In this document: one piece after another, positions 2,994-62,798 of the stretch
Position numbering within the stretch: position 1 is the first letter of the stretch
Layout: each line of letters opens with the position of its first letter
Origin: Escherichia coli
GTDB taxonomy: Bacteria; Pseudomonadota; Gammaproteobacteria; Enterobacterales; Enterobacteriaceae
Length of the DNA stretch: 64,000 bases
Strand: one strand, 5' to 3'
Assembly (NCBI RefSeq): GCF_022846255.1
Contig: NZ_AP025682.1
Translations under genes and position numbers: made by a program
Notes under the pieces: model-generated
What the model saw: the letters and a program-made list of their open reading frames with translations, nothing else
The model's database searches: none
Told to the model about the DNA's origin: nothing

Positions 2994-5417
2994 ATGTCCG
3001 GCTGGCCACGAATTTACTACAAATTACTGAATTTACCATTAAGCATCCTGGTAAAAAGCAAGTCTATTCCGGCGGATCCTGCCCCGGAACTGGGGCTGGA
3101 TACCTCTCGTCCAATTATGTACGTTTTGCCGTACAACTCGAAAGCTGACTTGCTGACGTTGCGCGCCCAGTGTCTGGCACATGACCTGCCTGACCCGTTA
3201 GAGCCGCTGGAAATCGACGGCACGCTACTGCCGCGCTATGTGTTCATTCACGGCGGGCCGCGTGTGTTCACCTATTACACGCCGAAAGAAGAGTCTATTA
3301 AGCTGTTCCACGACTATCTCGATTTGCACCGCAGCAACCCAAATCTGGATGTGCAGATGGTGCCAGTATCGGTGATGTTTGGTCGCGCGCCGGGGCGTGA
3401 AAAAGGCGAAGTGAACCCGCCGCTGCGTATGCTTAACGGCGTACAGAAATTTTTCGCTGTACTGTGGCTCGGTCGCGACAGTTTTGTGCGTTTCTCGCCG
3501 TCAGTTTCGCTGCGCCGTATGGCGGATGAACACGGCACGGATAAAACTATCGCTCAGAAACTGGCGCGCGTGGCGCGTATGCACTTTGCCCGTCAACGCC
3601 TGGCTGCCGTGGGTCCACGTCTGCCTGCTCGTCAGGATCTGTTTAATAAGCTGCTCGCCTCCCGCGCCATTGCGAAAGCGGTAGAAGATGAAGCGCGCAG
3701 CAAAAAAATCTCCCATGAAAAAGCGCAGCAGAACGCGATTGCGCTGATGGAAGAGATTGCGGCGAATTTCTCTTACGAGATGATCCGCCTGACTGACCGC
3801 ATTCTGGGCTTCACCTGGAACCGACTTTACCAGGGTATCAACGTCCATAACGCCGAGCGCGTTCGCCAGCTGGCCCACGACGGCCATGAGCTAGTGTATG
3901 TGCCTTGCCACCGCAGTCACATGGACTACCTGCTGCTTTCTTACGTGCTGTATCACCAGGGGCTGGTGCCGCCGCATATCGCCGCCGGGATCAACCTGAA
4001 CTTCTGGCCGGCCGGGCCGATTTTCCGCCGTCTGGGGGCGTTCTTTATTCGCCGTACGTTTAAAGGCAATAAACTTTATTCCACCGTTTTCCGTGAGTAT
4101 CTCGGCGAACTGTTCAGCCGTGGTTATTCCGTCGAGTATTTCGTGGAAGGCGGTCGTTCCCGTACGGGGCGTTTGCTGGATCCGAAAACCGGTACGCTAT
4201 CGATGACCATTCAGGCGATGCTGCGTGGCGGCACTCGTCCGATTACGCTGATTCCGATCTATATCGGTTATGAGCACGTCATGGAAGTGGGTACTTACGC
4301 CAAAGAACTGCGCGGTGCGACGAAAGAGAAAGAGAGCCTGCCGCAGATGCTGCGTGGTTTAAGCAAGCTGCGTAATCTCGGTCAGGGGTACGTCAACTTC
4401 GGTGAACCAATGCCGTTGATGACCTACCTTAACCAGCACGTACCAGACTGGCGTGAATCTATCGATCCCATCGAAGCGGTGCGTCCGGCCTGGTTAACGC
4501 CGACGGTCAATAATATTGCTGCCGATCTGATGGTACGCATTAACAACGCAGGCGCGGCAAACGCCATGAACCTGTGCTGTACTGCGCTTCTGGCGTCACG
4601 TCAGCGCTCACTCACCCGCGAGCAGTTAACCGAGCAACTCAACTGCTACCTGGATCTGATGCGCAACGTGCCTTACTCCACGGACTCTACCGTTCCTTCA
4701 GCCAGCGCCAGCGAGCTTATCGATCACGCGCTGCAAATGAACAAGTTTGAAGTCGAGAAAGACACTATCGGCGACATCATCATTCTGCCGCGCGAGCAAG
4801 CGGTGCTGATGACCTACTATCGCAACAACATTGCGCATATGTTGGTGCTGCCTTCTCTGATGGCGGCAATTGTCACCCAGCATCGCCACATCTCCCGCGA
4901 CGTATTGATGGAGCACGTCAATGTGCTTTACCCAATGCTGAAAGCGGAACTGTTCTTGCGCTGGGATCGCGACGAGTTACCGGACGTTATTGATGCGCTG
5001 GCAAATGAGATGCAACGTCAGGGGCTGATTACCCTGCAAGATGATGAGTTGCATATCAACCCGGCGCATTCTCGCACGCTACAGCTGCTGGCCGCAGGCG
5101 CGCGCGAAACGCTGCAACGTTATGCCATCACCTTCTGGCTGTTGAGTGCCAACCCGTCGATCAACCGCGGTACGCTGGAGAAAGAGAGCCGCACCGTCGC
5201 GCAACGTCTCTCCGTGCTGCACGGTATCAACGCGCCGGAGTTCTTCGACAAGGCGGTGTTCAGTTCTCTGGTGCTGACACTGCGTGATGAAGGGTATATC
5301 AGCGATAGCGGCGACGCCGAACCGGCAGAAACGATGAAGGTGTATCAGTTGCTGGCGGAGTTGATTACATCAGACGTGCGTTTGACGATTGAGAGTGCGA
5401 CGCAGGGCGAAGGGTAA
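2994..5417 (+). CDS. plsB: Glycerol-3-phosphate acyltransferase PlsB, 807 aa
   Basis: ORF track 2934..5417; start moved to ATG at 2994 ([29 protein letters not shown]); HXXXXD acyltransferase motif region ([17 protein letters not shown]) present. Confidence 0.95.
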
Positions 5418-8146: not shown

Positions 8147-8272
<126 letters not shown>

Positions 8273-12374: not shown

Positions 12375-12500
12375 ATGCCGGATGCGGCGTGAACGCCTTA
12401 TCCGGCCTACGAAATTGAAACGTATGTAGGCCTGATAAGACGCGTCAGCGTCGCATCAGGCAGTTGTTGTCGGATAAGGTATGAAAGCCTTATCCGTCCT
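12375..12500. repeat. REP/BIME cluster in malE-malF spacer
   Basis: tgccggatgcggcgtgaacgccttatccggcctac / gtaggcctgataagacgcgtcagcgtcgcatcaggca / tgtcggataaggtatgaaagccttatccgtcc. Confidence 0.8.
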
Positions 12501-14077: not shown

Positions 14078-14968
14078 ATGGCAATGGTCCAACCGAAATC
14101 GCAAAAAACACGTTTGTTTATTACTCACCTGCTACTGCTACTTTTTATCGCGGCGATTATGTTCCCGCTACTGATGGTCGTCGCTATCTCACTGCGCCAG
14201 GGGAACTTTGCGACCGGCAGCCTGATCCCGGAGCAAATCTCCTGGGATCACTGGAAACTGGCATTAGGTTTTAGCGTGGAACAGGCTGATGGTCGCGTTA
14301 CACCGCCGCCGTTTCCGGTACTGCTATGGCTGTGGAACTCGGTAAAGGTCGCCGGGATTTCCGCGATTGGCATTGTGGCGCTCTCCACCACCTGCGCCTA
14401 CGCTTTCGCCCGTATGCGCTTTCCAGGCAAAGCGACGCTGCTGAAAGGAATGCTGATTTTCCAGATGTTCCCGGCAGTACTTTCACTGGTCGCGTTGTAT
14501 GCGTTGTTTGATCGTCTGGGTGAGTACATTCCATTCATTGGCCTGAATACTCACGGCGGCGTAATTTTCGCGTATCTGGGTGGGATTGCGCTGCATGTCT
14601 GGACCATCAAAGGCTATTTCGAAACCATCGATAGTTCGCTGGAAGAAGCGGCTGCGCTGGATGGTGCGACACCGTGGCAGGCCTTCCGCCTTGTCCTGTT
14701 GCCGCTGTCAGTACCGATTCTGGCGGTGGTGTTCATCCTGTCGTTTATCGCTGCTATTACTGAAGTTCCGGTCGCATCGCTGTTACTGCGTGACGTAAAC
14801 AGCTACACCCTGGCCGTGGGGATGCAGCAATACCTCAACCCGCAAAACTACCTGTGGGGTGACTTTGCCGCTGCTGCCGTGATGTCTGCATTACCGATCA
14901 CCATCGTCTTCTTGCTGGCTCAACGCTGGCTGGTCAACGGCCTGACGGCAGGTGGTGTGAAAGGTTAA
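14078..14968 (+). CDS. malG: Maltose ABC transporter permease MalG, 296 aa
   Basis: Translation [60 protein letters not shown]; EAA motif region [21 protein letters not shown]. Confidence 0.95.
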
Positions 14969-15039
14969 AGATGTTGTTCTGCCAATGTTATGCCGCTGCA
15001 CCCTCAACTTACGTTATCCCAACTTGTGACTGTTATTCG

Positions 15040-15061
15040 GCGCTCCACGGAGCGCCTTTTT
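15040..15061 (+). terminator. Rho-independent terminator after malG (ggcgctccacggagcgcc + T7)
   Basis: Perfect 7-bp stem GC hairpin followed by ttttttt at 15055..15061, lying in the 94-bp convergent spacer between malG and psiE. Confidence 0.65.
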
Positions 15062-15472
15062 TTACTCCCGCTTCAGCCGTTTCGAATTACATAACCACAG
15101 GGTGATCACCAGTAACAGGATCGCAGCCGAGTAGATCAACACATCCAGTGGCGATTTATGATCGACGATGATCAAGCGCACAATGGCGGTGATCCCAATA
15201 TAGACAAAGTAACGTAGCGGGAAGTGAAAACCGGACTGAAAGTACTTCACAATCAGCGCGATAAATTCGAAATAGAGAAAGTAAACCACCAGCCCTTCTA
15301 CCAGCTCATATTTGCTGGTTTGTTCTGGCGCGAACAGCACATCAGCCAGATGCACCGTTTCTTTGCCGAGGAAGACAACCAAAATCAGGCCGAGGCACAG
15401 CAGGCCAAGATTGAGTACGGTCTGCAAAATGGTGGAGATAAACTCCACGCGCGGACGAGAGAGTGACGTCAT
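15062..15472 (-). CDS. psiE: Phosphate-starvation-inducible inner membrane protein PsiE, 136 aa
   Basis: ORF track 15062..15601; start moved to [38 protein letters not shown] matching remembered PsiE; 4-TM protein. Confidence 0.9.
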
Positions 15473-15716
15473 AGCAGTACCTCCTTCACAGTGGCGAGCT
15501 TCCTGTATAACGCAAAAATGTGACGGGGATCTATATTTTTTGTGTATGTTTTGTTCAACCTGGATTAAGTGGGCATCTCCCATCAACATCGTATCTGGCA
15601 AAACACACTGTCCAAAAAATCACCCATTCAGGTGATTCCCAGCCACCAGCAATGCGCGAAAAATCGACAATGTTCCTCTGGAACAAATGAAACGTAACCT
15701 GATAAAGGTGGTAAAA

Positions 15717-15965
15717 ATGAAGCCTTATTTTGCTGCTTTGATGTTATCAGTCTCTGTTCTTCCTGCTTATGCTGGTCCGCTCGGTACTGCTGATAAAGCC
15801 GACCTACCGCAAAGCAATGTCTCCAGCCCAATGATGGCCCAGTCGCTCAGGCAACCAGACCTGCAACCGATATCGACGGACAGGAAGACAGAATGTTTTC
15901 GCCTTTACACACCAGATCGCAAACCGGGGGTGAACTGCGTTCCTGATGGCTCGACAGGCCATTAA
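15717..15965 (+). CDS. Small predicted secreted protein (signal peptide MKPYFAALMLSVSVLPAYA); possibly the yjbT-type small periplasmic protein
   Basis: ORF track 15687..15965; ATG at 15717 preceded by aaaggtgg SD-like sequence; cleavable-signal-like N-terminus; identity to yjbT is from memory only. Confidence 0.45.
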   Translation: MKPYFAALMLSVSVLPAYAGPLGTADKADLPQSNVSSPMMAQSLRQPDLQPISTDRKTECFRLYTPDRKPGVNCVPDGSTGH

Positions 15966-16011
15966 GAATGAGGGTGCCAGTGAGTGCGAAAACTGGCACC
16001 TTTTTCATGAC

Positions 16012-18108
16012 TTAGCGGAAATTGACGCTACGGTCGCTGGTCATGTCATACAACTGGAACTTACGCCCAAGTTGCTGACCACCGTCACGCGTCAGCGGCG
16101 TCCAGCCAATTGCCGCACGGCTGCGTGTCGGGCCAGACGAGAAGAGATCCAGCGGTACAGAGACATACACGCCTTTGGTGAAGTCCCCTTCGCCGTACTC
16201 CTCTTTTGAAACATTAGTGATCGTGGCATAGCCACCCACCACCACGCCGCTATCAAAGCGTTTGGCGATCTCCAGCGTGCCGCCTTTATCCCCAGCCAGA
16301 TACTGCCCGACGCTCGCTTTCACTAACACATCCTGAGCGAAAGATGGCGTCCAGTAGGCGGTCAGATGTCCGGTTTTCACGCTGTAGTCGGTGAATTTCA
16401 TCATATCTTTTGCACTACGCCAGTCGCGCTGTTTAACGTAGTTGGCATCCACACCAAACGCCCAGTTGCTGTCCAGCGGGCGATACAACACTTCTGCCCC
16501 CGCACCGCCAAACATGGTTTCGAGATAACCTCCGTAGACCTGACCGTAGAAGCCGTTGCCCAGATGCTGGAAGTAGTTGGCTTGCAGGTTATTCACATAG
16601 ACATCGTTCTGCACATACTCGCGCACATGGGTACGCACGCGCGGTAAGTGCGAGTCCTGCGGCGGATTGGTGTAGTTAAACTTGTCGTAGTTGTTGGCAA
16701 GGTTAGCAAACAGACTGCCGGTGGTCAGCAGATGGTCCGTCAGCCACAAATCCGCCGTTCCCATCACGCCCAGCTGATACATGTAAAAGTTTTCCGGGCC
16801 ACCGACCGACTGGTTCAGCACCGGATCGATATGAAAATCAAAGCGCGATTTGTCGATATACCAGCCCTGCTCGGTGGACTTCGGAACCACTGGCTCGACG
16901 CGTTTTTGCGCCAGCTTCGTTTCGTGGCCCAACGGCTCTCCGGCGAGATGATTTTTCAGGCTGGCGACATCGGTTTCCGTCGTCACCTGCGGCATGTTAA
17001 GGCGATTTTCCGTAATGCGGATCGTTTTGATCCCATCCGGTAGATCGTTCATCACGATCCGATTAGCACGGATGATCCCTTCGCGCGGATCACGATATTT
17101 CACCTGCTCGCCGGTAACATACAGCGTATCGCCTTTCGCCTGGATCTGCGGATCGGCAAGTCCTGCATTGTATTTCAACAGCGTTAACTGATTCGCCACC
17201 ACCGAATGCTGCAAAATGGCATCCTGCGGCTGCGGTTGATATTGCGGGCGGGCGTTATCGTTGTAAGACGGGCGCAGATCGTTAAAGTTGGTGCGCAGCG
17301 TGACGCCAAACATAAAAGTGTTGCCACGTTCATAGCTAAGGTTAACGTCGGCCCAATCGGTAACGCGATAAATCGCCCCGACGTTAAACTTACTTTTTTG
17401 CTCCAGCTTTCCGGCAAAATCCTGCTGATAATTATTGCCTTCATACTCCAGTTTCAGACGCAGCGGTTGCCAGGGCGTCTGGTATTCCACGCCGCCAAAC
17501 AGTGAGGCCGGGCCGTGGAACATCTGGCTGCCGTCGATAGATCCCGCCTGTTTGTAGCTGTTATCGCGATAGCAATATTTATCACTGGCTGAACAGAGCG
17601 GATTTTTCACGTTACCGCTAGTGCCCAGATATCCCCAGCCCAGGCCGAGTGTAAAATCGAACGGCCCCCAGGCTTTGCTGGCAACAAGATATTCCGCATC
17701 AAACAGCCCCGTACCGCCGATATCCCGCGCACCAACCGCCACTTGCGGCAGCCAATAACTCTCTTCCCACAAACGCAGTTTGAGATCGAAGGCTTTATCT
17801 TTATACGTTTGATCGCCAGAGAACGCTTCGACGCTGCTGTACTGCCGGGTGCGCACGTCGGTGTAGCGCAGCGTTGTTTCCAGCCACGGGAAGAGTTGCA
17901 CTGAAGCTGAGTAATAACGGTACTGATCGTTATCGCGATAGTTCAGGCTCAGCTCCCCTTCCCGCGCCATGCGCGCGGTGGGCGTTTGTAATAATCCTAC
18001 GCCACCGAAATCCGATTGCGACGGACCAATGGGCGCAGGATATGTTTCGCCGTAGCAAGCTGTGCTAATGCCCAGCGCCAGTAAGCTAAGCAGATGTCTT
18101 TTTTTCAT
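16012..18108 (-). CDS. yjbH: YjbH, predicted outer-membrane beta-barrel/lipoprotein of the yjbEFGH exopolysaccharide-associated operon, 698 aa
   Basis: ORF track 698 aa with signal peptide [20 protein letters not shown], ends ...SVNFR (aromatic C-terminus typical of OM proteins); gene order yjbE-F-G-H conserved. Confidence 0.85.
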
Positions 18109-19836: not shown

Positions 19837-20138
19837 AACAATTTCCCTTCATTGAATGAATGGAGATTTACCCAAAACATTTCGGGCGGGATCGAGTATA
19901 CACAACTAAAGCATGCGAATTACGGCGCGGGGAATTAGTGATGGAGTTTTAGGACAATTGGAATGAATATCAAATATAAGCTTTGACTTATATATAAATA
20001 ATATTAAAAATCATGAAGTTAAAATAAAATAAAAAGTAATTAATCTGCGTATTTTCCGAAATCAACCACGATTAAAAATTTATTTTAGGATTAACCTCAC
20101 TGTATGATTTTCGTTAAATGACAGACAAGAGGATTTAT

Positions 20139-20177
20139 CTGATAAAACAATGCCGACTTATAGTCGGCATTGTTTTT
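20139..20177 (-). terminator. Hairpin caatgccgac-ttata-gtcggcattg flanked by A and T runs; candidate bidirectional terminator downstream of pgi
   Basis: 10-bp perfect stem; T-rich tract follows on the minus strand (pgi direction), T5 follows on plus strand. Confidence 0.5.
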
Positions 20178-20243
20178 AAGGCTATTTAATCAATCGTACT
20201 ATGTATTAATTGCCGAATACGATGTACATATCGGCATCGACCT

Positions 20244-20320
20244 GTAGGCCTGATAAGACGCGACCGCGTCGCATCAGGCATCGGTTGCCGGATGCGGCGT
20301 GAACGCCTTATCCGGCCTAC
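20244..20320. repeat. Two REP units (BIME) immediately downstream of pgi
   Basis: gtaggcctgataagacgcgaccgcgtcgcatcaggca and ttgccggatgcggcgtgaacgccttatccggcctac. Confidence 0.8.
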
Positions 20321-22204: not shown

Positions 22205-22430
22205 CTACCTGCGCTAGCGCAGGCCAGAAGAGGCGCGTTGCCCAAGTAACGGTGTTGGAGGAGCCAGTCCTGTGATAACACCTGAGGGGGTGCATCGCCG
22301 AGGTGATTGAACGGCTGGCTACGTTCATCATCGGCTACAGGGGCTGAATCCCCTGGGTTGTCACCAGAAGCGTTCGCAGTCGGGCGTTTCGCAAGTGGTG
22401 GAGCACTTCTGGGTGAAAATAGTAGCGAAG
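22205..22430 (+). promoter_or_regulatory. Lysine riboswitch (L-box) in lysC 5' leader
   Basis: Leader contains conserved L-box segments (agaggcgc...gtaacggtgttggaggagcc...ctgagggggtgcatcgccgagg...) upstream of lysC ATG at 22508; position and motifs as known for E. coli lysC. Confidence 0.75.
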
Positions 22431-39051: not shown

Positions 39052-40877
<1,826 letters not shown>

Positions 40878-45756: not shown

Positions 45757-45876
45757 ATGCCTGGCAGTTCCCTACTCTCGCATGGGGAGACCCCACACTA
45801 CCATCGGCGCTACGGCGTTTCACTTCTGAGTTCGGCATGGGGTCAGGTGGGACCACCGCGCTACGGCCGCCAGGCA
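45757..45876 (-). rRNA. rrfE: 5S ribosomal RNA (rrfE-type)
   Basis: Reverse complement reads TGCCTGGCGGCCGTAGCGCGGTGGTCCCACCTGACCCCATGCCGAACTCAGAAGTGAAACGCCGTAGCGCCGATGGTAGTGTGGGGTCTCCCCATGCGAGAGTAGGGAACTGCCAGGCAT, the E. coli 5S sequence. Confidence 0.96.
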
Positions 45877-45974
45877 AATTCTGTTTTATCAACACGTCTC
45901 GTTATGACCTGTCGATTTAATCTGTATCAGGCTGAAAATCTTCTCTCTATCCGCCAAAACATCTTCGGCGTTGT

Positions 45975-48879
<2,905 letters not shown>

Positions 48880-49072
48880 TCACAACCCGAAGATGTTTCT
48901 TGCGATTCATCATCGTGTTGCGAAAATTTGAGAGACTCACGAACAACTCTCGTTGTTCAGTGTTTCAATTTTCAGCTTGATCCAGATTTTTAAAGAGCAA
49001 ATATCTCAAACATCACCCGAAGATGAGTTTTGAGATATTAAGGCAGGTGACTTTCACTCACAAACCAGCAAG

Positions 49073-49148
49073 TGGCGTCCCCTAGGGGATTCGAACCCCT
49101 GTTACCGCCGTGAAAGGGCGGTGTCCTGGGCCTCTAGACGAAGGGGAC
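49073..49148 (-). tRNA. gltV: tRNA-Glu (UUC) in 16S-23S spacer
   Basis: Reverse complement reads GTCCCCTTCGTCTAGAGGCCCAGGACACCGCCCTTTCACGGCGGTAACAGGGGTTCGAATCCCCTAGGGGACGCCA. Confidence 0.96.
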
Positions 49149-49233
49149 GTATCAGTCTGCTTCGCAAGACGCCTTGCTTTTCACTTTCTATCAGACAATC
49201 TGTGTGAGCACTTCAAAGTACGCTTCTTTAAGG

Positions 49234-50775
<1,542 letters not shown>

Positions 50776-62602: not shown

Positions 62603-62628
62603 CGCCCCGTTTGTGGGGCTAATTTCTT
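62603..62628 (+). terminator. Hairpin ccccgtttgtgggg followed by T-rich tract, candidate rsd terminator
   Basis: Short GC stem then ctaatttcttg about 35 nt after rsd stop. Confidence 0.45.
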
Positions 62629-62720
62629 GTCGGAGTGCCTTAACTGGCTGAGACCGTTTATTCGGGATCCGCGGAACCTGATCAGGCTAATACCTGCGAA
62701 GGGAACAAGAGTTAATCTGC
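62620..62720 (+). promoter_or_regulatory. TPP riboswitch (THI element) in thiC leader
   Basis: Conserved THI-box segments ctgagaccgtttattcgggatc ... ggaacctgatcaggctaatacctgcgaagggaac upstream of thiC ATG at 62802. Confidence 0.75.
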
Positions 62721-62798
62721 TATCGCATCGCCTTTGCGGCGATCGTCTCTTGCTTCATCCGTCGTCTGACAAGCCACGTCCTTAACTTTTTGGAATGA

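What the first reader, a model, noticed from the sequence alone, without database searches (positions are those of the whole stretch)
15473..16011. Small secreted ORF between psiE and yjbH
An 82-aa ORF (15717..15965) with a strong SD-like sequence and a classical signal peptide (MKPYFAALMLSVSVLPAYA-GPLG) sits in the 540-bp gap between psiE and yjbH, on the opposite strand to both. The mature part (about 63 aa) is Pro/Asp/Ser-rich with two Cys. It may correspond to the K-12 small gene yjbT, which I cannot verify, and its function is unknown.
Basis: partly seen in the sequence, partly recalled or inferred. Interest (0 to 1): 0.3.

Follow-up and report, generated by a model that had tools for sequence, protein, structure and literature searches.

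The report
yjbT: small exported protein gene
The ORF is the already-annotated E. coli gene yjbT, a real and nearly universal E. coli gene for a small exported polypeptide whose only strongly conserved part is a C-terminal two-cysteine loop; its function is still unknown, so the finding is correct but ordinary.

Summary
The window protein is identical to K-12 YjbT, and the CDS is present at 95% identity or more in 5414 of 5426 complete E. coli genomes.

It is a real protein-coding gene. Relatives occur in Escherichia, Kluyvera, Pseudocitrobacter, Buttiauxella and Shimwellia, and only this frame stays open in all of them. In the last 25 codons, E. coli and a Kluyvera-like homologue differ by 18 synonymous and 0 non-synonymous changes.

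It has a strong, conserved Shine-Dalgarno sequence. The database start at 15687 (92 aa) is not conserved outside Escherichia.

Anatomy:
- a 19-aa Sec-type signal peptide;
- a fast-evolving linker of about 38 aa, probably disordered;
- an invariant T-x-C-x13-C-x-P-D core.

My best reading is a periplasmic polypeptide that presents a disulfide-closed loop as a binding element. Export, the disulfide and the partner are all inferred, not shown.

The gene travels with its own conserved upstream elements and terminator. A few E. coli strains lack the whole unit.

Novelty: already known, function unknown. Interest is low.

The parts
15616..15637 (+). Conserved upstream box 1: AAAATCACCC-N5/6-GGTGAT(T), an imperfect palindrome about 95 nt before the start codon. 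Its role is unknown; it could be an activator site or a hairpin.
   Evidence: Present upstream of yjbT homologues in 8 of 9 loci, including three where the gene sits in a different genomic context (L004, L019, L022). The 5' half is the better conserved. The hairpin is weak or absent in L019 and L022.
15658..15664 (+). -10-like element GAAAAAT (GATAAT in the Pseudocitrobacter locus L018). This is an inferred promoter element.
   Evidence: Its position is conserved in the alignment. It lies 1-16 nt upstream of the RNA-seq-assembled 5' ends, which map to window 15665-15680. The consensus sigma-70 scan found no promoter here at its threshold, so this is an inference.
15672..15686 (+). Stem-loop TGTTCC-TCT-GGAACA at or near the 5' end of the mRNA.
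   Evidence: A hairpin is kept in 8 of 9 loci, with loop length varying from 3 to 5 nt and energies of -5 to -11 kcal/mol. One base pair changes T-A to G-C in L016. The variable loop argues for a hairpin rather than a fixed-spacing protein site. Its function (mRNA stabilisation or an operator) is inferred.
15687..15716 (+). The ten extra codons (MKRNLIKVVK) of the 92-aa database annotation. Probably 5' UTR, not coding.
   Evidence: No in-frame ATG exists at this place in the Kluyvera, Pseudocitrobacter, Buttiauxella or Shimwellia homologues, which all start at the MK/MT equivalent to 15717. Anti-SD pairing here is weak, -3.3 kcal/mol. RNA-seq 5' ends lie only 7-22 nt upstream, or downstream of it.
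15699..15716 (+). Ribosome-binding region CTGATAAAGGTGGTAAAA, with SD core AGGTG at 15706-15710.
   Evidence: CTGATAAGGTGGTAAAAATG is nearly identical between Escherichia and Kluyvera and is recognisable in the other genera. Duplex with the 16S 3' end is -9.3 kcal/mol.
15717..15965 (+). yjbT coding sequence, 82 codons plus stop.
   Evidence: PF17089 at 193.5 bits for the 82-aa form. Identical to K-12 YjbT residues 11-92. It is the only frame open in all nine homologues. dN/dS against E. albertii is 0.13.
15717..15773 (+). Signal peptide, 19 codons (MKPYFAALMLSVSVLPAYA), with predicted signal peptidase I cleavage after AYA.
   Evidence: n/h/c-region features and small residues at -3/-1 recur in all homologues...ASVYA|I...PAHA|Q...SYASA|V...PAFS|Q...PCYS|Q...PCYA|Q. 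Cleavage itself was not tested.
15774..15887 (+). Variable Pro/Ser/Asp/Gln-rich linker, codons 20-57.
   Evidence: pN is about 0.5 and dN/dS about 0.7 against Kluyvera-type homologues. AlphaFold2 gives no secondary structure, with pLDDT of 46-63.
15888..15962 (+). Conserved core TECFRLYTPDRKPGVNCVPDGSTGH, codons 58-82. Cys60 is at 15894-15896 and Cys74 at 15936-15938.
   Evidence: Against L004 there are 18 synonymous and 0 non-synonymous differences. T58, C60, P70, G71, N73, C74, P76 and D77 are invariant in 12 sequences from five genera. The Cys-Cys spacing is always 13 residues.
15972..16005 (+). Intrinsic terminator: a 10-bp GC-rich stem (15972-15981 / 15992-16001) followed by a T-run. It is shared tail-to-tail with the convergent yjbH.
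   Evidence: Folding energy is -22.1 kcal/mol with z = -5.0 against shuffles. A comparable GC-rich hairpin follows the stop codon in every homologue. The simple terminator scan missed it because the loop exceeds 8 nt.

Best explanation
The ORF is yjbT (b4620), a monocistronic chromosomal gene of Escherichia and a few related Enterobacteriaceae.

Proposed steps:
1. It is transcribed from its own promoter, starting around window 15665-15680. The transcript begins with a small 5' stem-loop and ends at the hairpin at 15972-16005.
2. Translation starts at ATG 15717 and gives an 82-aa precursor.
3. A 19-aa Sec-type signal peptide takes the precursor across the inner membrane and is removed after AYA. 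This leaves a 63-aa, 6.8-kDa polypeptide.
4. That polypeptide is a flexible, rapidly evolving Pro/Ser/Asp-rich spacer carrying one selected element at its C-terminus: T-x-C-x13-C-x-P-D. Its two invariant cysteines are most likely oxidised in the periplasm (by DsbA) to close a 15-residue loop.
5. The loop, not a folded domain, is the working part. It most likely acts by binding a partner protein in the cell envelope, as a small regulator or inhibitor.

Shown here: identity with yjbT, protein-level purifying selection, the three-part architecture, the conserved start, and published transcription in K-12.
Inferred: export, cleavage site, disulfide, partner binding and any physiological role.
For: **Identity**
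- PF17089 at 217.7 bits.
- The K-12 annotation has the same position and orientation, and the sequence is identical to YJBT_ECOLI.

**Real gene**
- Present in 5414 of 5426 complete E. coli genomes at 95% identity or more.
- Homologues occur in Escherichia spp., Kluyvera georgiana, Pseudocitrobacter, Buttiauxella and Shimwellia.
- Only this frame is open in all of them.
- The core has 18 synonymous and 0 non-synonymous changes against L004. Across the whole gene, dN/dS against E. albertii is 0.13.

**Start at 15717**
- The SD and start context are conserved across genera, and the upstream ATG is absent outside Escherichia.
- The SD duplex is -9.3 versus -3.3 kcal/mol.

**Export**
- Signal-peptide features and the -3/-1 rule hold in every homologue, although the residues themselves diverge.

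**Loop as the functional element**
- Exactly two Cys in every mature sequence, always 13 residues apart.
- Eight invariant positions, all in the core.
- The linker is nearly neutral.
- AlphaFold2 finds no fold in two runs, pLDDT 56-57.

**Own transcription unit**
- The upstream elements and the terminator travel with the gene into three unrelated genomic contexts.
- The whole unit, 15560-16011, is cleanly missing in strain EC42405.

**Transcription**
- b4620 was detected in all seven RNA-seq samples of K-12. In four samples the assembled 5' ends map to window 15665-15680 (PMC3734233).
Against: - I found no direct evidence of translation, export, signal-peptide cleavage or disulfide formation. 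yjbT was absent from the supplementary tables I could search in six transcription-start, translation-start and transcriptome papers: Cappable-seq, SMRT-Cappable-seq, N-terminomics, INRI-seq and two iModulon papers, two of the six having no supplements held.
- No signal-peptide predictor was available.
- No partner is known. There is no conserved neighbour outside the psiE-yjbH synteny, so genomic context gives no functional clue.
- The low AlphaFold2 confidence could simply reflect a very shallow alignment (9-12 sequences) rather than true disorder.
- The RNA-seq 5' ends come from read assembly, not from mapped transcription start sites.
Confidence: 0.6

Rival explanations
1. Pre-pro-peptide. 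YjbT is a precursor whose variable linker is a pro-region. A periplasmic protease releases the conserved C-terminal peptide of about 20-25 residues, disulfide-cyclised. The peptide then acts in the periplasm or outside the cell as a signal, toxin or inhibitor. The layout resembles heat-stable enterotoxin precursors (signal peptide, pro-region, Cys-containing C-terminal peptide).
For: - The three-part layout: 19-aa signal, neutral 38-aa spacer, invariant 25-aa C-terminus.
- Short-tailed family members end right after C-x-P-D-[EY], so the minimal unit is about 20 residues.
- No fold is predicted.
- Basic residues often precede the core: DRK-TEC, DRR-TEC, DHR-TEC.
Against: - The site before the core is not conserved as a cleavage motif: DHV, SHV, ELN and QYN also occur.
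- There is no sequence similarity to any enterotoxin or other Pfam family at E up to 10.
- No export or processing genes are linked to it.
- The gene is a chromosomal core gene of commensal and pathogenic E. coli alike, and it is not on plasmids or in phage families.
- There is no experimental trace of such a peptide.
Confidence: 0.12
2. The database model is right. Translation starts at ATG 15687 and gives a 92-aa precursor with a long, highly basic n-region (MKRNLIKVVKMK...).
For: - The frame is open from 15687.
- K-12, RefSeq and the Pfam model all use 92 aa.
- The ten codons are kept within Escherichia.
Against: - That whole upstream stretch is nearly invariant within Escherichia whether coding or not, so its conservation there is uninformative.
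- One Escherichia species has K2T in the extension.
- The ATG is missing in all other genera, which start at the equivalent of 15717.
- Pairing with the 16S 3' end at 15687 is at the median of all ATGs.
- Assembled 5' ends lie 7-22 nt upstream of it or downstream of it.
Confidence: 0.12
3. YjbT is an accessory factor of the neighbouring yjbEFGH polysaccharide-secretion operon, a group-4-capsule-like system. For example, it could be a periplasmic ligand of the YjbH outer-membrane protein.
For: - yjbT sits tail-to-tail with yjbH and shares its terminator.
- The psiE-yjbT-yjbH order is kept in Escherichia, Kluyvera georgiana, Pseudocitrobacter and one metagenomic lineage.
Against: - It is transcribed convergently, from its own promoter.
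- In Buttiauxella, Shimwellia and two other lineages the homologue lies in unrelated contexts, far from any YjbH gene in the DNA held.
- Kluyvera has another gene inserted between the two.
- EC42405 keeps intact yjbFGH without yjbT.
- JS316 keeps yjbT while its yjbH is a pseudogene.
Confidence: 0.08
4. The ORF is spurious, or the locus works as a non-coding RNA.
For: The protein is short, has no known function and has no predicted structure. There is no Rfam match either way.
Against: - All 18 substitutions in the core codons are synonymous, although only about a quarter of the sites are.
- The frame is intact across five genera.
- The SD and start codon are conserved.
Confidence: 0.01

Closest known systems
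YjbT family (Pfam PF17089; E. coli K-12 yjbT/b4620; RefSeq WP_001295279.1 'periplasmic protein')
   Same: Identical protein and the same position between psiE and yjbH on the opposite strand.
   Different: Only strain-level differences around the gene. This strain lacks xylE and lacks the REP-type insertion that K-12 carries upstream of yjbT. The evidence favours an 82-aa product rather than the 92 aa in the databases.
Heat-stable enterotoxin precursors of E. coli (STa/STb). Comparison from general knowledge, not tested by a tool beyond Pfam.
   Same: A small Sec-exported precursor in which a cysteine-containing C-terminal segment is the conserved, active part and is preceded by a spacer.
   Different: No sequence similarity: no Pfam hit other than PF17089 at E up to 10. 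YjbT has one putative disulfide instead of two or three. It is a chromosomal core gene rather than a plasmid or transposon cargo. Processing and secretion are unproven.
Small enterobacterial periplasmic stress proteins of the YhcN/DUF1471 type (BhsA, YahO and others). Comparison from general knowledge.
   Same: Short, signal-peptide-bearing, monocistronic genes restricted to Enterobacteriaceae, with poorly defined functions.
   Different: Those form a compact folded domain and have their own Pfam family. YjbT matches none and is predicted to be unstructured apart from the putative loop.
Disulfide-constrained inhibitor loops of the Bowman-Birk/SFTI-1 type. A resemblance recalled from memory only.
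   Same: A short loop closed by one disulfide and followed by C-[VIF]-P-D (SFTI-1 ends ...ICFPD). Basic residues lie inside the loop.
   Different: The YjbT loop has 13 intervening residues, not 7. The canonical C-T-[KR]-S-x-P-P-x-C reactive site is absent. The origin is bacterial, and no inhibition data exist. This is a lead, not a classification.

Membership tests
Pfam PF17089 (YjbT) | Score above the curated gathering threshold (27 bits) over the full model. | tested here: met
   217.7 bits for the 92-aa form over model positions 1-92. 193.5 bits for the 82-aa form over positions 11-92. All 9 aligned homologues match.
E. coli K-12 yjbT (b4620) orthologue | Same sequence and same genomic position: between psiE and yjbH, on the opposite strand. 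| tested here: met
   K-12 annotation. 100% amino-acid identity. Exact match to YJBT_ECOLI in the protein collection.
Sec-dependent, signal peptidase I-cleaved secretory protein | Positively charged n-region, hydrophobic h-region of about 10-15 residues, and small uncharged residues at -3 and -1. | tested here: met
   Rule-based inspection only: K2, a hydrophobic peak over residues 4-15 of the 82-aa form, P at -4 and A-Y-A before G20. The equivalent pattern occurs in all homologues. No predictor was run.
Sec-dependent, signal peptidase I-cleaved secretory protein | Demonstrated translocation and cleavage. | not testable with these tools
   Needs PhoA or Bla fusions, or N-terminal mass spectrometry.
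Bacterial lipoprotein | Lipobox [LVI]-[ASTVI]-[GAS]-C at the end of the signal peptide. | tested here: not met
   The E. coli signal peptide has no Cys. Cys residues in the signal regions of some homologues (L-M-T-C, A-A-P-C) do not fit the lipobox.
Periplasmic disulfide-bonded (DsbA-substrate) protein | Paired cysteines in the exported part, conserved in number and spacing. | tested here: met
   Exactly two Cys in every mature sequence, always 13 residues apart, and both invariant. Actual oxidation was not testable here.
Heat-stable enterotoxin family | Sequence match to the enterotoxin family model and its multi-disulfide toxic domain. | tested here: not met
   No Pfam family other than PF17089 at E up to 10 for any of 9 members. 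Only two Cys are present.
Phage or defence-system protein | Match to a PHROGs or PADLOC family. | tested here: not met
   0 families at E up to 1 in both libraries.

The most novel reading that the evidence does not exclude
YjbT is the precursor of a new kind of enterobacterial peptide. This would be a loop of about 20 residues, closed by a single disulfide (C-x13-C-x-P-D). It would either be released from a disposable spacer or displayed on it, and it would act as a specific ligand or inhibitor of an envelope protein, or as an extracellular signal. That would explain why the loop is frozen across genera while the rest of the protein drifts freely.
Probability: 0.12. Interest if true: 0.6.

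Novelty: already known. Interest (0 to 1): 0.22.

Why it matters
The finding adds nothing new about which genes exist. yjbT has been annotated in K-12 for years and has its own Pfam family.

Three small points do matter:
1. The database start codon is probably ten codons too far upstream. This affects signal-peptide predictions and any construct design.
2. The comparison shows where selection acts: on a 20-25-residue two-cysteine C-terminal element, not on the whole protein. That gives a concrete handle (C60/C74 mutants, a synthetic loop peptide) for a gene that nearly every E. coli carries and nobody has characterised.
3. The gene behaves as a self-contained unit with its own conserved upstream elements, and a few strains have lost it naturally. 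Those strains are ready-made material for comparison.

Tried and rejected
- **Structure.** Two AlphaFold2 runs, on the full precursor with 9 sequences and the mature part with 12, gave pLDDT 56-57 and no secondary structure. I therefore ran no fold search, because it would be meaningless.
- **Solved structures.** A profile search returned 0 hits at E up to 10.
- **Other family libraries.** NCBIfam, PHROGs and PADLOC gave no hits. Rfam found nothing in 15000-16300 at E up to 1.
- **Apparent doubly frameshifted YjbT proteins (P0012, P0013).** These keep the signal peptide and the core, and briefly looked like compensated frameshifts. Their contigs have fragmented xylE and yjbH as well, so they are indel-ridden assemblies. 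Rejected.
- **Sigma-E promoter.** GGAAC at 15680 and CTGAT at 15699 resemble sigma-E -35 and -10 elements. The spacer is 11 nt in all genera instead of about 16, and the RNA-seq 5' ends lie upstream. Rejected.
- **Sigma-28 and FlhDC.** The FlhDC SELEX peak reported near yjbT lies inside yjbH, and the sigma-28 consensus fits poorly. Rejected.
- **Box 1 as a CRP site.** Its half-sites are in the wrong order (TCACC...GGTGA). I could not assign it to any regulator.
- **Consensus scans.** The sigma-70 scan found no promoter, and the terminator scan missed the real hairpin because of its 10-nt loop.
- **Literature.** 'yjbT', 'b4620' and 'PF17089' gave only incidental mentions. Supplement searches of six transcription-start, translation-start and transcriptome papers found nothing.
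- **Plasmid hits.** The matching records are 0.65-4.9 Mb, that is chromosomes or mislabelled replicons.

Full report
**1. What is there**

The window carries malG at 14078..14968 (+), psiE at 15062..15472 (-) and yjbH at 16012..18108 (-). Pfam confirms psiE (PF06146) and yjbH (PF06082). The gap between psiE and yjbH is 15473..16011, 539 bp.

On the + strand an ORF runs from ATG 15687 (92 aa), or from ATG 15717 (82 aa), to a stop at 15963-15965.
- the coordinates;
- the opposite orientation to both neighbours;
- the Shine-Dalgarno sequence;
- the N-terminus MKPYFAALMLSVSVLPAYA|GPLG;
- a 63-aa mature part rich in Pro (8), Asp (6) and Ser (6), with two cysteines.

**2. Identity**

- The protein scores 217.7 bits against Pfam PF17089 'YjbT', whose threshold is 27.
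- K-12 MG1655 annotates yjbT (b4620, 'PF17089 family protein YjbT') in exactly this place and orientation.
- The K-12 protein is identical to the window's, and the sequence is UniProt YJBT_ECOLI.
- RefSeq names it 'periplasmic protein' (WP_001295279.1) in the strain whose gap is 100% identical to the window.

**3. Is it a real gene?**

Yes.

- **Within E. coli.** The CDS is present full-length at 95% identity or more in 5414 of 5426 complete genomes. In an evenly spaced sample of 60 genomes, every match had an annotated CDS under it.
- **In other taxa.** Intact homologues occur in E. albertii, E. whittamii, two unnamed Escherichia species and Kluyvera georgiana. Profile searches add Pseudocitrobacter, Buttiauxella, Shimwellia and some metagenomic lineages. 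The family is small: 13 representatives among 1.84 billion proteins. All named members belong to genera of the Enterobacteriaceae.
- **Reading frame.** Only the yjbT frame is open in all nine loci compared.
- **Substitution pattern.** This is decisive. Against E. albertii there are 7 synonymous and 3 non-synonymous differences (dN/dS 0.13). Against a Kluyvera-like homologue, the last 25 codons carry 18 synonymous and 0 non-synonymous differences, while the linker is close to neutral, with pN about 0.5 and dN/dS about 0.7.
- **Transcription.** A published directional RNA-seq study detected b4620 in all seven K-12 samples (PMC3734233).

I found no accessible Ribo-seq or proteomic record for yjbT. 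Translation is therefore inferred from the selection pattern, not observed.

**4. Which start codon?**

Databases use ATG 15687 (92 aa).

- All homologues outside Escherichia begin at the equivalent of 15717 and have no in-frame ATG upstream.
- The ribosome-binding region CTGATAAGGTGGTAAAAATG is almost unchanged between Escherichia and Kluyvera.
- Predicted pairing with the 16S 3' end is -9.3 kcal/mol for 15717, in the top 4% of 929 ATGs in the window. For 15687 it is -3.3, about the median.
- In four of the seven RNA-seq samples the assembled 5' ends map to window 15665-15680, only 7-22 nt before 15687. In the other three samples the assembled ends lie downstream of 15687 (coordinates converted from U00096.2 using the 269-nt yjbT-psiE gap).

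**5. Anatomy of the product**

An alignment of 12 sequences from five genera shows three parts.

- **(a) Signal peptide, about 19 aa.** Its residues vary, but its n/h/c organisation and small -3/-1 residues are kept. It has no lipobox.
- **(b) Linker, about 35-40 aa.** It is hydrophilic and rich in Pro, Ser, Thr, Asp and Gln, with almost no conserved positions.
- **(c) C-terminal core.** The motif is T-x-C-[FY]-x-[LIVF]-x3-[DE]-[RH]-x-P-G-[VIL]-N-C-[VIF]-P-D.
  - The positions invariant across all mature sequences (T, C, P, G, N, C, P, D) all lie here.
  - Every mature sequence has exactly two cysteines, always 13 residues apart.
  - Some members end immediately after P-D-[EY], so the GSTGH tail of E. 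coli is dispensable.

AlphaFold2 predicted no secondary structure beyond the signal-peptide helix, with pLDDT 56-57 in two runs. No solved structure or other family matches.

**6. The gene as a unit**

A conserved set of elements surrounds the CDS.

- **Box 1 (15616-15637).** AAAATCACCC-N5/6-GGTGAT.
- **A -10-like GAAAAAT (15658-15664).**
- **A short stem-loop, TGTTCC-TCT-GGAACA (15672-15686).** Its loop length varies between genera while the stem is kept, which suggests a hairpin at the 5' end of the mRNA.
- **The ribosome-binding region.**
- **A GC-rich terminator hairpin (15972-16005).** Its energy is -22.1 kcal/mol, z = -5.

These elements accompany the gene even where it lies in unrelated contexts. 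Examples are next to a CsbD-family gene in Buttiauxella, next to a DUF2767 gene, and next to a glycoside-hydrolase operon.

In strain EC42405 the whole stretch 15560-16011 is replaced by a 33-nt hairpin, while psiE and yjbH remain intact. K-12-type strains carry a REP-like insertion just upstream of box 1, which leaves the unit untouched.

I could not assign box 1 to a known regulator. The resemblance of GGAAC/CTGAT to sigma-E elements fails on spacing, 11 nt instead of about 16.

**7. How it most likely works**

| Status | Steps |
|---|---|
| Shown | A protein is selected for. Selection is concentrated on the two-cysteine C-terminal element. The N-terminus has the properties of a Sec signal peptide. 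|
| Inferred | Export and cleavage after AYA. Oxidation of Cys60-Cys74 in the periplasm to close a 15-residue loop. Action of that loop, held on a flexible spacer, as a binding element for an envelope partner. |

I give the identity and coding status about 0.97 confidence. I give the 82-aa start about 0.85 and the exported disulfide-loop mechanism about 0.6.

Rival explanations:
- processing into a free C-terminal peptide, by analogy with heat-stable enterotoxin precursors (0.12);
- the 92-aa start (0.12);
- a dedicated role with yjbEFGH (0.08). This is weakened by non-syntenic homologues, by EC42405 keeping yjbFGH without yjbT, and by JS316 keeping yjbT beside a yjbH pseudogene;
- a spurious ORF (0.01).

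**8. Comparison with what is known, and verdict**

This is a member of the YjbT family by every testable criterion. It is not a lipoprotein, not an enterotoxin-family member, and not phage-, plasmid- or defence-related.

The gene is already known and annotated, and only its function is open. The useful additions are the probable start-codon correction, the location of the selected element, and the cassette-like behaviour of the gene. Interest is low (0.22).

The most novel reading still allowed is a new single-disulfide peptide ligand or signal. I give it a probability of about 0.12.

**Caveat on distribution**

The scan of representative genomes used two peptide patterns taken from the E. coli-type core, and it did not even return E. 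coli's own representative genome. Absence from E. fergusonii, Salmonella or Citrobacter therefore cannot be concluded from it.

Noticed in passing
window 14969-15061: xylE is absent between malG and psiE, whereas K-12 has it there. The malG 3' end and the MalH sRNA sequence, with its terminator, are identical to K-12 up to the T-run. They then join the psiE 3' end directly, so the deletion is clean and lies between two T-runs. Strains 104 and EC42405 have the same arrangement.
   Followed up: partly
L015 (K-12) 4057-4325, L002 1501-1769, relative to window about 15585-15613: K-12-type strains carry a REP-like insertion of about 55-75 nt between the psiE promoter region and yjbT box 1. E. albertii has a longer one. 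In JS316, PGAP annotates a 47-aa 'hypothetical protein' (WP_000487767.1) inside it on the minus strand, which is probably spurious.
   Followed up: partly
L003 (E. coli EC42405) 3088-3120, equivalent to window 15560-16011: The whole yjbT unit (upstream elements, CDS and terminator) is replaced by a 33-nt inverted repeat, GCCGAATACGATTCCTGTATTCGGCGCTGCTTG. About 11 of 5426 complete genomes show no match to the CDS. Whether this allele is ancestral or a deletion is unknown.
   Followed up: partly
window 15616-15637 and 15672-15686: Two conserved palindromic elements lie upstream of yjbT and travel with the gene across genera and genomic contexts. No regulator or RNA family could be assigned. In several genera box 1 is followed by a T-run and looks terminator-like.
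   Followed up: partly
L014 (Kluyvera georgiana) 4377-4832; L009 528-983: Kluyvera has an extra 151-aa hexapeptide-repeat (acetyltransferase-like) gene inserted between yjbT and yjbH.
   Followed up: no
L002 2095-3594 (E. coli JS316): yjbH is annotated as a pseudogene with an internal stop in this strain, while yjbT next to it is intact.
   Followed up: no
L007, L008 (GCA_002230035.1, GCA_002230655.1): Two public assemblies are riddled with indels: xylE and yjbH are split into fragments. They have put 97-aa 'frameshifted' YjbT proteins (P0012, P0013) into the protein databases. These are artefacts, not variants.
   Followed up: yes
window about 15610-15670, minus strand (K-12 U00096.2 4238095-4238155): The supplement of PMC3734233 lists a 61-nt intergenic transcript on the psiE strand, antisense to the yjbT upstream and leader region. 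Its significance is unknown.
   Followed up: no
window 8200-8270, 12429-12499, 20032-20317, 22220-22416, 40804-40874, 45759-50775, 62621-62721: Rfam gathering-threshold hits elsewhere in the window: four naRNA4 (REP/BIME-type) copies, STnc430, a lysine riboswitch, a complete rrn operon with StyR-44 and a tRNA in the spacer, and a TPP riboswitch. All are ordinary for this part of the E. coli chromosome.
   Followed up: no
(genome-contig scan): The pattern-based scan of representative genomes returned four other Escherichia species and Kluyvera georgiana, but not E. coli's own representative. Negative results from that scan are therefore not reliable evidence of absence.
   Followed up: no
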